Virus record (IMG/VR): IMGVR_UViG_2609459797_000002
DNA length: 14,736 bases
From: a virus
Lineage: Duplodnaviria > Heunggongvirae > Uroviricota > Caudoviricetes
Direction: 5' to 3' (one strand)
In this document: positions 3,261 through 8,954 of the stretch, in pieces
Layout: each line of letters begins with the position of its first letter
Numbering within the stretch: position 1 is the first letter of the stretch
Made by a program: the position numbers and the translations under genes
The notes under the pieces: generated by a model
The model's database searches: none
Seen by the model: the letters and a program-made list of their open reading frames with translations, nothing else
Told to the model about the DNA's origin: nothing

Positions 3261-3969
3261 AGCTTGGTGTTAACAATAGCCTGCTTCTCCTTGCCTTTCG
3301 GCACGTAAGAGGCTAACCTACATGTGTCTGGCATGAAATTGGCCTCAGATTAATGTTAAGCGTCTTGCAGGACGCGTAATGTTAACTGGGGCTTTTCTCT
3401 ACCTGCCGTTGGTGTTCGTGCCCGAGGCAGATAGCCTCAAGCACCCGCAGTCATTCTACTTAACTAAGATTTCCCCGCAAACCGTTTTTGTCCAGCACAG
3501 TAAATATCCAACTAAACCAATGGAGTTCGCTGTATTTACCGCCAGTATTCAATGCACATGACCGCCATGAACACCCCTAAAAAAAGGGCATTTATATATC
3601 CAAATATTAATATCAAAACATCAACTTTTTCCATATACCTTGCTGTGAAGATGATGGGCATACATGATGCGAACAACCAGAACGCAACAAACAAAAACTG
3701 CAATGCGTTTTTCATTATTCCTCCTACAATCAATGTGCAATTACATTTAAACACACCTCAATTTGGCCGGACATATAAATATCTAAACCAGAAAAAATCA
3801 CTTACATAGCGTTACAAACTCTTTAGTCTAAAGGTTCATCGTAAAACATTCCCCATACTTATCAGTCCGTTCCGCGCCAGGTAGCTCATTGCCTTATCTG
3901 GCAACCTGTAATCAGGTTTCCGCTTTTTCAGTTGGCTGGTCGTTTAACCGACATAGTTAACCCATTAAT

Positions 3970-4257
3970 CTAGTTGCCGGATGTTGGTGGATTTTCGCGT
4001 TTTAGTTGTTCATAAAAGTGCACAGCTTTAACCAATTCTTCTGATGTAACCGGGACTGGTGAGGCAGTGAATAAGGCCTGAATTTGATAGTTCGGCCTGT
4101 CGTTACAATCCTCTTTTTTCGGTACATATTTCCAGTCACCAGACCACTACTTCCCCTGAAAGTCCGTAACGCCTTTTTTCACGTAGCGATATCGCCATGT
4201 CACTGGTTTTGCTTGCCCCGCCGTTTCATGCCCTTCCTGATAATTAATCTCGCTCAT
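3970..4257 (-). pseudogene. small ORF (about 95 codons) interrupted by an in-frame TAG at 4147-4149; function unknown
   Basis: Hand translation: MSEINYQEGHETAGQAKPVTWRYRYVKKGVTDFQGK*WSGDWKYVPKKEDCNDRPNYQIQALFTASPVPVTSEELVKAVHFYEQLKRENPPTSGN*. SD-like GGGG upstream of the ATG. Same orientation as the early operon. Confidence 0.3.
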
Positions 4258-4319
4258 TCATCGCCCCACTCATCACAATATGCTTCGACCGGAGTTTTTC
4301 CCGCTTCATAGTCATCACG

Positions 4320-4445
4320 CTAGGATTCGACATCAGCAGCACTTCCACCGCGTAACTCACCATAGTCCATTAATAGTTCATCCCGCTCTTCAAAACTGAT
4401 GTTATATTTAGCTGAACAAAAATCAGCCACTTTGTTCTTCCTCAT
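4320..4445 (-). CDS. possible small protein (41 aa), hypothetical
   Basis: Hand translation MRKNKVADFCSAKYNISFEERDELLMDYGELRGGSAADVES. Weak SD. Below the ORF-track length cutoff. Confidence 0.25.
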   Translation of the reverse strand: MRKNKVADFCSAKYNISFEERDELLMDYGELRGGSAADVES

Positions 4446-4494
4446 CGTCTTTTATTTCGTGGTATGAGTAATTGCAGTAGTTAAAGAAAATTTC

Positions 4495-4605
4495 TTATGC
4501 TCCGTCATGAATTTCATCAGGTGTTGCGTCATCGTCCACTTCGAATACATCCTCAAAATCTCCACCAGCTATTCCCGTTTCAATAATAATTTTGAACTTT
4601 CGCAT
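4495..4605 (-). CDS. possible small acidic protein (36 aa), hypothetical
   Basis: Hand translation MRKFKIIIETGIAGGDFEDVFEVDDDATPDEIHDGA. On the minus strand it is preceded by AGGAGG, then a GCCGCCC-GAAA-GGGCGG hairpin (GNRA loop), then ATG. Confidence 0.3.
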   Translation of the reverse strand: MRKFKIIIETGIAGGDFEDVFEVDDDATPDEIHDGA

Positions 4606-4867
4606 TTCACTACCGCCCTTTCGGGCGGCCTCCTGATGTTCTGAGGGTGCAGAAATCCATCCGGTTAAGGATTAAGTTTTATTTACAGAACTGAATTTAA
4701 TTATTCAGATATACGTATCTGTAACCTTACGAATCTACTCACTGGATGCCTCTTTCATAAAAATAGTCCAGTGGGTTTTATCGTTTTTTCCCTGTTCGTT
4801 GACAGATAACAGGCTTTCTATCTGTCAGTGCCAGAATCTGGCTTACCGGTATTTGCGTTTCATTCCA

Positions 4868-5224
4868 TTAAAAAATCAGAACGCCGTGCGGCCTCAACAC
4901 CCGAAAAGCTTCTTTAAATCTCTGTCGCAAATCATCACGCCAGGCATCTTTATTCAGCCGTCCATATTTCTTTCCCATCCAGGCGTTATCACCAACACGC
5001 TCAAGATGCGGAGGGTCTAATACAACCATCGAAAAAGATGCGTCTGCAAATGATAATGCACGAAAATCTGCGATAATGTCAGGGCTGATAATCAAGCGTC
5101 TCCCATTGCGTAATGTGTATCCTTCTTTTCTGATATCGCTGAATATCGCCCGTTTGTCAGACTTATCGAACCAGAACATGCGGCTGCCACAGCACATATC
5201 AAGAATGGTTGCCGGTGCACTCAC
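4868..5224 (-). CDS. SAM-dependent methyltransferase-like protein (118 aa), probably truncated
   Basis: Glycine-rich motif ILDMCCGSR, then an acidic residue (FSDIR), then VVLDPPH, resembling motif I followed by motif IV (D/N-P-P-Y/H) of amino-methyltransferases. Too short for a full catalytic domain. GTG start overlaps the upstream stop (GTGA). Confidence 0.5.
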   Translation of the reverse strand: MSAPATILDMCCGSRMFWFDKSDKRAIFSDIRKEGYTLRNGRRLIISPDIIADFRALSFADASFSMVVLDPPHLERVGDNAWMGKKYGRLNKDAWRDDLRQRFKEAFRVLRPHGVLIF

Positions 5225-8896: not shown

Positions 8897-8954
8897 TTTC
8901 TGGTGACGTTTGGCGGTATCAGTTTTACTCCGTGACTGCTCTGCCGCCCTTTTT
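8897..8954 (+). ncRNA. dicF: DicF small regulatory RNA (ftsZ-targeting antisense sRNA) with its intrinsic terminator
   Basis: TTTCTGGTGACGTTTGGCGGTATCAGTTTTACTCCGTGACTGCTCTGCCGCCCTTTTT matches the DicF sequence as I recall it. GGCGG...CCGCC pairing followed by a T-run. Sits between ydfC and dicB as in Qin. Confidence 0.85.

What the first reader, a model, noticed from the sequence alone, without database searches (positions are those of the whole stretch)
3970..4660. Cluster of unannotated small ORFs and an amber-interrupted ORF downstream of the early operon
On the minus strand, in the orientation of the early operon, lie a 36-aa acidic ORF (4605-4495), a 41-aa ORF (4445-4320) and a ~95-codon frame broken by a single TAG (4257-3970). 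The first is preceded by AGGAGG, then a GNRA-tetraloop hairpin (GCCGCCC-GAAA-GGGCGG, 4606-4628), then ATG. That arrangement could bring the SD close to the start through structure, or it could occlude it. Such positions in lambdoid phages often hold small accessory genes (host-takeover or anti-defence morons).
Basis: seen in the sequence. Interest (0 to 1): 0.5.

Follow-up and report, generated by a model that had tools for sequence, protein, structure and literature searches.

The report
Decayed small genes in Qin prophage
The three "small ORFs" are broken remains of three conserved small phage genes in the defective Qin prophage of E. coli, each cut short by a single point mutation to a stop codon, so this is ordinary prophage decay and not a set of new accessory genes.

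Summary
The ORFs and the hairpin are present at the stated coordinates. The window is the IAI1-type Qin (DicA/DicC) cryptic prophage of E. coli.

The three frames are pseudogenes of three translationally coupled phage genes of unknown function:
- A: DUF7167 / phrog_1997, 60 aa when intact.
- B: phrog_519, 58 aa when intact.
- C: phrog_660, 171 aa when intact.

Each is interrupted at codon 37 by a one-base change of a sense codon: AAA to TAA in A, TGG to TAG in B, CAG to TAG in C. B has also lost its ATG, which is GTG here.

Intact copies are common in phages and in roughly 1,200-1,400 complete E. coli genomes, and they evolve under strong purifying selection (dN/dS 0.04-0.16). NCBI's PGAP annotation pipeline already marks A and C as pseudogenes; only B is unannotated.

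The AGGAGG-hairpin-ATG arrangement is the conserved start region of the E. coli-clade DUF7167 gene. Its geometry fits a T4 gene 38/25-type "split" ribosome-binding site: 23 nt of spacing falls to 6 nt once the hairpin folds. Distant relatives use an ordinary Shine-Dalgarno (SD) sequence and have no hairpin. No compensatory base changes support the structure, and in this window the gene it served is dead.

Interest is low.

The parts
4606..4708 (-). Conserved 5' leader that travels with gene A. The homology block with related phages begins near 4708, at the weak A/U-rich hairpin CTGAAT-N6-ATTCAG (4708-4691).
   Evidence: related phages align from query position 53 (window 4708) onward. One search gives the fold.
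4629..4634 (-). AGGAGG, a Shine-Dalgarno-like hexamer 23 nt upstream of the ATG of gene A. Its last G forms the closing G.U pair of the hairpin.
   Evidence: Read directly. It is conserved in nearly all E. coli-clade copies and is kept at the ArgO145-type mosaic junction. Its duplex with the anti-SD is -10.3 kcal/mol, and its bases have unpaired probabilities of about 0.25-0.86.
4612..4629 (-). Hairpin GCCGCCC-GAAA-GGGCGGU: 6 G-C pairs plus one G.U pair, with a GNRA tetraloop.
   Evidence: -16.9 kcal/mol in 47 nt, z = -3.2; formed with probability near 1; 98.8% of cells paired across 12 distinct sequences, with no change on both sides of any pair.
4423..4605 (-). Gene A pseudogene (DUF7167 / PF23768 / phrog_1997; 60 aa when intact). 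The internal TAA at 4497-4495 corresponds to Lys-37 AAA in intact relatives.
   Evidence: 49.2 bits against a cutoff of 24.4; E = 2.9e-28, profile positions 1-57 of 57. PGAP marks it 'internal stop'.
4254..4430 (-). Gene B pseudogene (phrog_519; 58 aa when intact), not annotated in RefSeq. The start ATG has become GTG (4430-4428). The internal TAG at 4322-4320 corresponds to Trp-37 TGG in intact relatives. Its start overlaps the stop of A, and its stop overlaps the ATG of C.
   Evidence: (76 of 80 viral loci carry an intact 58-aa B).
3836..4257 (-). Gene C pseudogene (phrog_660; 171 aa when intact). Lesions: TAG at 4149-4147 (CAG Gln in L093, CCG Pro in L010); a 90-nt in-frame deletion with its junction near 3986/3985, flanked by an AATCC(R)CC repeat; a second TAG at 3972-3970 (CAG in the reference); a 4-nt deletion near 3938 that shifts the frame. 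It uses the ancestral TGA at 3838-3836.
   Evidence: PGAP marks it 'frameshifted; internal stop'.
4735..5224 (-). Context: a SAM-dependent methyltransferase pseudogene immediately upstream. It carries a frameshift, which I place at the T-run 4879-4865 by reading the sequence only, and an internal stop. That makes four consecutive dead genes.
   Evidence: I did not align it to an intact methyltransferase.

Best explanation
Window 4708-3836 (minus strand) is the decayed remnant of a three-gene cassette, A-B-C. In functional lambdoid phages this cassette lies in the early rightward operon, between the replication/DUF977/methyltransferase genes and the hok-rem-ydfU region.

In the Qin-type cryptic prophage lineage sampled here, each gene was knocked out by a single-base nonsense mutation at codon 37: AAA to TAA in A, TGG to TAG in B, CAG to TAG in C. 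Further neutral damage followed. B's ATG became GTG. C acquired a 90-nt deletion, a second CAG to TAG and a frameshift. The 36-aa, 41-aa and 36-aa ORFs are therefore truncated leftovers. They very probably produce no functional product, and because B and C depend on translational coupling to the gene upstream, the stop in A should also reduce their translation.

Shown here: homology across the stop codons; the ancestral sense codons; intact copies evolving under purifying selection; shared dead alleles with added lesions.

Inferred: the truncated peptides have no function.

The AGGAGG-hairpin-ATG element is the native translation initiation region of the E. coli-clade DUF7167 gene. The most likely mechanism, which is inferred and not tested, is a 'split' ribosome-binding site. 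The very stable GNRA hairpin is looped out, so the only accessible SD-like sequence (AGGAG) sits about 6 nt from the AUG in effect, instead of 23 nt. This is the mechanism shown experimentally for T4 genes 38 and 25. The confidence given here (0.93) is for the pseudogene reading; for the split-site sub-claim I put confidence at about 0.4.
For: Identity of the locus: 100% identical to E. coli strain 81 and 99.8% to IAI1, inside the dicA-dicC-ydaT-like ... flxA-relBE-hokD Qin prophage. DicF and sok RNAs are present in the window.

Homology across the stops: A matches PF23768 at 49.2 bits (cutoff 24.4) and phrog_1997 over profile positions 1-57 of 57. B matches phrog_519 at 2.4e-11. C matches phrog_660 at 5.2e-28.

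Intact versions: 60-aa A and 58-aa B in phage vB_EcoS-640R1; 119-aa C in vB_EcoM-606R7 and in L093; 171-aa C in IMG/VR loci.

Each stop is one base away from the relatives' sense codon.

Selection: dN/dS among intact copies is 0.05-0.16 for A, 0.04 for B and 0.16 for C. Comparisons involving the window are raised to 0.21-0.28, 0.16-0.18 and 0.19-0.30 against the close relatives.

Spread: the viral scan found 340 relatives of A, and the 80 loci kept all encode a protein identical to the intact 60-aa query. 1,942 of 5,426 complete E. coli genomes carry the stretch. 482 of those are at 99% identity or more (the window type). About 1,242 are at 90-95%, and the sampled rows in that band show three annotated CDS. 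In the one such locus I opened, A and B are annotated intact and C is a pseudogene.

Shared dead alleles with extra lesions: E. coli W, BHD6, IAI1, strain 81, PhiR42_1 and S. flexneri all share them; E. coli C has a larger deletion.

Hairpin: stable and significant. It is kept together with AGGAGG at an independent mosaic junction. The 3' arm is fully sequestered while AGGAG is accessible. More distant homologues, in Klebsiella phage, Logan metagenome-assembly contigs (L089/L090), Pseudomonas and a Bacilli metagenome-assembled genome (MAG), have no hairpin and an ordinary SD 7-9 nt upstream. Close T-even phages against distant T4 relatives show the same pattern for the gene 25 split site (PMC3014915).
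Against: I have no expression data, so a residual role for a truncated peptide cannot be formally excluded. The N-terminal 36 aa of A would still have a good start region.

dN/dS on the window branch is raised but still below 1. The genes are short, the pairwise values include the constrained branch, and the numbers are noisy.

For the split-site idea: no compensatory base-pair change was seen. One phage, 606R7, has a disruptive G to A change in the stem with an intact gene A. Three loci keep an intact gene A after a 14-nt deletion that removes AGGAGG and part of the 5' arm. So the element may be dispensable.
Confidence: 0.93

Rival explanations
1. The short ORFs are real, expressed small accessory genes (host-takeover or anti-defence 'morons') of the prophage.
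For: They lie in the orientation of the early operon, and the first has a strong SD-like sequence nearby. Small acidic phage proteins are often inhibitors. The best fold matches of intact A, none significant, are phage inhibitors p56 and T7 Gp2.
Against: Each ORF ends at a nonsense mutation inside a longer conserved frame. The 41-aa ORF starts at a non-homologous ATG. Related window-type copies pick up further frameshifts and deletions. Promoter-like sites are at shuffled expectation (4 found against 4.3 expected), and none of the 4 terminator-like hits brackets the cassette. PGAP calls two of them pseudogenes.
Confidence: 0.04
2. The in-frame stops are read through, by a suppressor tRNA or programmed readthrough, so full-length A, B and C are still made.
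For: There is a single stop per gene in A and B, and two of the three first stops are amber. Some laboratory E. coli strains carry supE.
Against: The stops are of different kinds (TAA in A, TAG in B and C). C also has a frameshift and a 90-nt deletion. B has lost its ATG. Amino-acid replacements are elevated on this branch. Natural hosts such as IAI1, W and Shigella are not known suppressor strains (my own knowledge, not tested here).
Confidence: 0.01
3. Hairpin sub-question. The hairpin is not a spacing device. It is either a negative or regulatory element that hides the ancestral SD-like GGGCGGU, or an mRNA-stabilising or processing hairpin, or a neutral passenger.
For: The 3' arm GGGCGGU lies at canonical distance from the AUG. 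It can pair with the anti-SD at -8.1 kcal/mol, similar to the SDs of hairpin-less relatives at -8.4 and -9.3 kcal/mol, but it is fully sequestered. Gene A remains intact in copies with a mismatched stem or without AGGAGG. There is no covariation.
Against: AGGAGG abuts the stem exactly and is retained with it across an independent recombination junction. The folded spacing of 6 nt is optimal. The stem changes seen are mostly C to U, which keep G.U pairing. The phylogenetic pattern mirrors the experimentally proven T4 gene 25 case.
Confidence: 0.45
4. The hairpin is a transcription signal: an intrinsic terminator, or a boxB/nut-like antitermination site.
For: A GNRA-type loop on a G+C-rich stem resembles lambda boxB in outline (recalled from memory, not tested). 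The nin regions of lambdoid phages contain terminators.
Against: There is no U-tract on either strand and the terminator scan did not call it. There is no Rfam match even at E <= 5. It lies 6 nt from a start codon and far from the cro-proximal position of nutR. In some relatives it is translated as part of an extended ORF.
Confidence: 0.03

Closest known systems
DUF7167 family (Pfam PF23768; PHROG 1997), e.g. WP_001224662.1 in E. coli prophages
   Same: Window 4605-4423 aligns over the full family profile and is 90-97% identical to intact 60-aa proteins.
   Different: The window copy has Lys-37 changed to TAA, so it is a pseudogene. The family itself has no known function.
PHROG 519 and PHROG 660 (phage proteins of unknown function), e.g. 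WP_000753060.1 and the 119- and 171-aa proteins downstream of DUF7167
   Same: B and C match these profiles across their stops and keep the overlapping stop/start junctions of the intact cassette.
   Different: B has lost its start and carries W37 to amber. C carries two ambers, a 30-codon deletion and a frameshift.
Cryptic prophage Qin of E. coli (dicA/dicC/dicF/dicB, relBE, hokD, flxA)
   Same: Same locus and gene order. DicF RNA and DicA/DicC-type ORFs are in the window.
   Different: This IAI1-type version keeps the replication-to-hok segment, which as I recall is absent from the K-12 Qin copy (not checked here). That segment is itself a run of pseudogenes and IS insertions.
Split ribosome-binding sites of bacteriophage T4 genes 38 and 25 (Nivinskas et al. 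1999; Malys and Nivinskas 2009; reviewed in PMC3014915)
   Same: A strong SD lies too far from the AUG (23 nt here; 22 and 27 nt in T4). A stable intervening hairpin reduces the effective spacing (to 6 nt here; to 5 and 11 nt in T4). The element is present only in the close clade, and distant homologues have ordinary SD spacing.
   Different: It is in a temperate lambdoid prophage gene and has not been tested experimentally. There is no covariation support, and variants without AGGAGG exist. In this window the downstream gene is dead.

Membership tests
DUF7167 (PF23768) | Score above Pfam's gathering threshold over the whole domain | tested here: met
   49.2 bits against a cutoff of 24.4, residues 2-53 on profile positions 1-60 of 60, with the stop masked as X; phrog_1997 E = 2.9e-28, profile positions 1-57 of 57.
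DUF7167 (PF23768) | Uninterrupted reading frame of about 60 codons (a functional member) | tested here: not met
   TAA at codon 37 where relatives have AAA. PGAP marks it 'internal stop'.
PHROG 519 (gene B) | Significant profile match and an intact 58-codon frame with an ATG overlapping the stop of A | tested here: not met
   The profile match is met (2.4e-11; intact B gives 4.5e-23). The frame is not: the start is GTG and codon 37 is TAG instead of TGG.
PHROG 660 (gene C) | Significant profile match and an intact frame (119-171 aa) | tested here: not met
   The profile match is met (5.2e-28; intact C gives 4.2e-75). The frame has two TAGs, a 90-nt deletion and a 4-nt deletion.
T4 gene 38/25-type split ribosome-binding site | Strong SD more than about 15 nt from the start codon, with no accessible SD at canonical distance | tested here: met
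   AGGAGG lies 23 nt upstream; the only SD-like sequence at canonical distance (GGGCGGU) has an unpaired probability near 0.
T4 gene 38/25-type split ribosome-binding site | Stable intervening hairpin that reduces the effective spacing to about 5-11 nt | tested here: met
   a 7-pair stem formed with probability near 1, leaving 6 nt (AGUGAA) before the AUG.
T4 gene 38/25-type split ribosome-binding site | Structure maintained in evolution (compensatory changes) | tested here: inconclusive
   98.8% of cells paired, but no pair changes on both sides. Only C to U changes giving G.U at two positions, and one A.C mismatch.
T4 gene 38/25-type split ribosome-binding site | Destabilising the hairpin lowers translation, and compensatory mutations restore it | not testable with these tools
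   This needs reporter fusions or structure probing.
Phage moron (autonomous accessory gene cassette) | Own promoter and terminator flanking the gene(s) | tested here: not met
   promoter-like sites are at shuffled expectation (4 against 4.3), and no terminator brackets the cassette. The genes overlap in a stop/start coupled series within the early operon.
Intrinsic terminator | G+C-rich hairpin followed by a U-tract | tested here: not met
   the hairpin is followed by AGUGAAAUG and the scan did not call it.

The most novel reading that the evidence does not exclude
The E. coli-clade DUF7167 gene of lambdoid prophages is translated through a T4 gene 38/25-like split ribosome-binding site: AGGAGG, a looped-out GNRA hairpin, 6 nt, then AUG. 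As far as I know, that arrangement has been demonstrated experimentally only in T-even phages. The intact 60-aa, very acidic product is a small inhibitor-type early protein.
Probability: 0.3. Interest if true: 0.3.

Novelty: already known. Interest (0 to 1): 0.12.

Why it matters
It matters little for biology. It documents textbook decay of a cryptic prophage, and two of the three genes are already flagged as pseudogenes in RefSeq.

Three small points have practical value:
1. The middle gene (4430-4254) is an unannotated pseudogene of a well-conserved 58-aa phage protein.
2. Small-ORF hunters should not count these frames as candidate microproteins.
3. The intact cassette is present in roughly a quarter of complete E. 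coli genomes, is under strong purifying selection and has no known function. Its SD-hairpin-AUG leader is a cheap, testable candidate for a split ribosome-binding site outside the T-even phages.

Tried and rejected
- **Known RNA element.** Rfam gave no hit in 3700-4900 even at E <= 5. The only Rfam hits in the window are sok and DicF, elsewhere.
- **Upstream ORF coupling.** The 16-codon uORF MDFCTLRTSGGRPKGR* (4660-4610), which ends 4 nt before the ATG, is rejected. Its ATG is AGG or GTG in nearly all relatives.
- **N-terminally extended gene A.** Some databases list 87-aa forms, which would make the hairpin coding sequence. This is rejected as the native start. The majority haplotype has an in-frame TAA directly before the ATG, the window has an in-frame TAA further upstream, and the Pfam and PHROG profiles begin at MRKFK.
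- **The 93-aa form P0004.** Its N-terminal extension lies next to an IS66 insertion, which I infer replaced the leader.
- **Terminator or nut-like role for the hairpin.** There is no U-tract and the position is wrong.
- **Function of A from structure.** The AlphaFold model has pLDDT 78 and a beta-beta-alpha-beta-alpha layout, but the best PDB Foldseek match has E = 1.3.
- **Annotation and literature.** NCBIfam and Pfam give nothing for B or C, and no paper mentions DUF7167.
- **Wider species diversity to test hairpin covariation.** The genome-contig scan found only 4 loci, so the family is narrow and the test stays inconclusive.
- **All three first stops at codon 37.** I considered whether this is meaningful. 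With few transition-accessible nonsense sites (three Trp codons in B; Gln, Trp and CGA codons in C), I judge it a coincidence.

Full report
**What is in the sequence**

On the minus strand the window has ORFs at 4605-4495 (36 aa, MRKFKIIIETGIAGGDFEDVFEVDDDATPDEIHDGA), 4445-4320 (41 aa) and 4257-4147 (36 aa). The frame that starts at 4257 stays open to 3970 apart from one TAG.

Upstream of the first ATG lie AGGAGG (4634-4629), the stem-loop GCCGCCC-GAAA-GGGCGGU (4629-4612) and AGUGAA. The 47-nt context folds at -16.9 kcal/mol, with z = -3.2 against dinucleotide shuffles.

**Where the window comes from**

Megablast finds the stretch at 100% identity in E. coli strain 81 and at 99.8% in IAI1. It sits inside the Qin-type cryptic prophage. 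The gene order is dicB, dicA and dicC; then a ydaT-like gene, an O-like replication gene and DUF977; then a methyltransferase pseudogene, this region and an IS1202-like element; then ydfW, flxA, relBE and hokD. Rfam finds DicF (8898-8949, plus strand) and sok (3446-3275, minus strand) in the window.

PGAP already annotates 4605-4423 as 'DUF7167 family protein, internal stop' and 4257-3836 as 'hypothetical protein, frameshifted; internal stop'. The methyltransferase just upstream is also a pseudogene.

**The ORFs are fragments of longer conserved genes**

I translated through each stop and scanned the products against family profiles.
- The first frame matches Pfam DUF7167 at 49.2 bits (cutoff 24.4) and phrog_1997 over the whole profile (E = 2.9e-28).
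- The second matches phrog_519 (2.4e-11).
- The third matches phrog_660 (5.2e-28).

Intact versions exist in sequenced phages:
- vB_EcoS-640R1 has a 60-aa gene A and a 58-aa gene B. B's ATG overlaps A's stop (ATGGCTGA).
- vB_EcoM-606R7 and an E. coli contig (L093) have a 119-aa gene C whose ATG overlaps B's stop (ATGA).
- Of the 80 IMG/VR viral loci kept from the scan, all of which encode an intact A, 76 have an intact 58-aa B. About two dozen carry a 171-aa C, which is the full phrog_660 length (4.2e-75).

**Each stop is one base away from a sense codon**

Nucleotide alignment gives the following.
- A, codon 37: GCA TAA GAA here, GCA AAA GAA/GAT in relatives. This is Lys to ochre.
- B, codon 37: TCC TAG CGT here, GCA TGG CGT in relatives. 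This is Trp to amber.
- C, codon 37: AAG TAG TGG here, AAG CAG TGG in L093. This is Gln to amber. L010 and 606R7 have CCG at this position.

There are further lesions. It then reaches the ancestral TGA at 3838-3836.

**Selection**

| Gene | dN/dS among intact copies | dN/dS, window against close relatives |
|---|---|---|
| A | 0.05-0.16 | 0.21-0.28 |
| B | 0.04 | 0.16-0.18 |
| C (first 95 codons) | 0.16 | 0.19-0.30 |

They fit real genes that lost constraint on the window's branch. The sequences are short and the estimates are noisy.

**Distribution**

- 1,942 of 5,426 complete E. coli genomes carry the stretch.
- 482 are at 99% identity or more, and the sampled rows in that band are annotated with one or two features, not three.
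- About 1,242 are at 90-95%, and the sampled rows in that band show three annotated CDS. In the one such locus I opened (EJN001), A and B are annotated intact and C is a pseudogene.
- Six window-type copies share all the primary lesions: strain 81, IAI1, W, BHD6, 'phage' PhiR42_1 and Shigella flexneri.
- BHD6 and S. flexneri have an extra frameshift in C. E. coli C has a deletion that fuses the ydaT-like gene to the middle of B.

This is the signature of progressive neutral decay of a fixed cryptic prophage.

**The SD-hairpin-ATG element**

Homology with other phages starts about 100 nt upstream of the ATG, near 4708, so the leader belongs to the gene A module.

Evidence that fits a functional start region:
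- In an independent mosaic context (ArgO145 and Stx2a phages) the junction lies just 5' of TCAGGAGG, so AGGAGG plus the hairpin stay with the gene.
- The majority haplotype has an in-frame TAA directly before the ATG, so MRKFK is the true start. The window's little upstream ORF is not conserved.
- In the predicted ensemble the hairpin is formed with probability near 1. Its 3' arm, which contains the only SD-like sequence at canonical distance, is fully sequestered, while AGGAG is accessible.
- Folding reduces the SD-to-AUG spacing from 23 nt to 6 nt.
- More distant homologues have no hairpin and an ordinary SD 7-9 nt upstream. These are in a Klebsiella phage, two Logan metagenome-assembly contigs, Pseudomonas and a Bacilli MAG.
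- This matches the experimentally established split ribosome-binding sites of T4 genes 38 (22 to 5 nt) and 25 (27 to 11 nt), including their restriction to close relatives (PMC3014915).

Evidence that weakens it:
- Across 12 distinct sequences, no pair changes on both sides. There are only C to U (G.U) changes at two positions, and one A.C mismatch in 606R7.
- The loop varies: GAAA, GGCA and GUCA.
- Three loci keep an intact gene A after a 14-nt deletion that removes AGGAGG.

So the split-site reading is the best mechanistic guess but is unproven. In this window it is a relic in front of a dead gene.

**Function of the intact genes**

The function is unknown.
- NCBIfam and Pfam give nothing beyond DUF7167.
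- No paper in the library mentions DUF7167.
- The AlphaFold model of A has pLDDT 78 and a beta-beta-alpha-beta-alpha layout. It has no significant PDB match; the best is E = 1.3. The top hits, which are not significant, happen to be small acidic phage inhibitors (p56, T7 Gp2). I treat that as a lead only.

**Verdict**

The interpretation as candidate accessory small genes is not supported for this window, although the ancestral genes are real. The finding is ordinary and largely already annotated.

Noticed in passing
window 3446-3275 (-), junction at 3276/3275: This is a hok/sok locus. There is an Rfam sok hit and the mok leader (…RLASYVPKGKEKQA) is present. The hok ORF is cut exactly within its ATG by the adjacent IS1202-like (ISEsa1-family) element, and that element's own transposase gene is truncated.
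   Followed up: partly
window 4497-4495, 4322-4320, 4149-4147: The first nonsense codon of each of the three consecutive pseudogenes is at codon 37, so the stops are 175 and 173 nt apart. I judge this a coincidence, given how few transition-accessible nonsense sites there are, but it is odd.
   Followed up: partly
L005 2885-2887 (phage vB_EcoM-606R7): Gene B carries the same Trp-37 TGG to TAG change on a clearly different flanking haplotype, while A and C are intact there. This is either a recurrent mutation or a small gene-conversion tract.
   Followed up: no
window 4257-4225; L006 2380-3015 (ArgO145): Gene C is mosaic. Proteins of 211 and 239 aa in Stx2a/ArgO145-type phages share only about the first 7 residues (MSEI[ND]YQ) and the start junction with C, then continue into unrelated Ead/Ea22-like sequence. 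A recombination joint lies just inside the gene.
   Followed up: no
window 4879-4865: The methyltransferase ORF 5224-4868 ends at a T6 run (CTGATTTTTTAATGG). This is probably the homopolymer frameshift that PGAP reports for this pseudogene. The terminator scan flags the same spot, but I think that hit is spurious.
   Followed up: no
window 3754-3536 (-): A 72-aa hydrophobic ORF (MFKCNCTLIVGGIMKNALQFLFVAFWLF…) lies between gene C and the hok leader. It has no Pfam or PHROG hit and no PGAP annotation. Phage records annotate an ORF on the opposite strand here ('hornerin'), which looks dubious.
   Followed up: partly
L096 (Collinsella sp. MAG contig JAIHTM010000290.1); hits H37/H43 (Actinobacillus phage vB_Apl-pPE4): E. 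coli-prophage-type A-B-C sequence appears in a Collinsella MAG contig (protein A 98% identical) and in a phage attributed to Actinobacillus pleuropneumoniae (about 88% nucleotide identity). These are probably a binning contaminant and a host misattribution respectively.
   Followed up: no
L103 1076-1843 (E. coli C); L001 2462-4632 (strain 81): Other Qin copies show different large lesions. In E. coli C a deletion joins the ydaT-like gene to mid-B. In strain 81 an IS66 insertion replaces the segment from dicB to the ydaT-like gene. The Qin prophage is being eroded independently in different lineages.
   Followed up: partly
L087: One IMG/VR locus contains two copies of the leader plus the start of gene A. 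The hairpin variant there is GCUGUCC-GGCA-GGGCGG and there is a poly-G stretch upstream. This may be a duplication or an assembly artefact.
   Followed up: no
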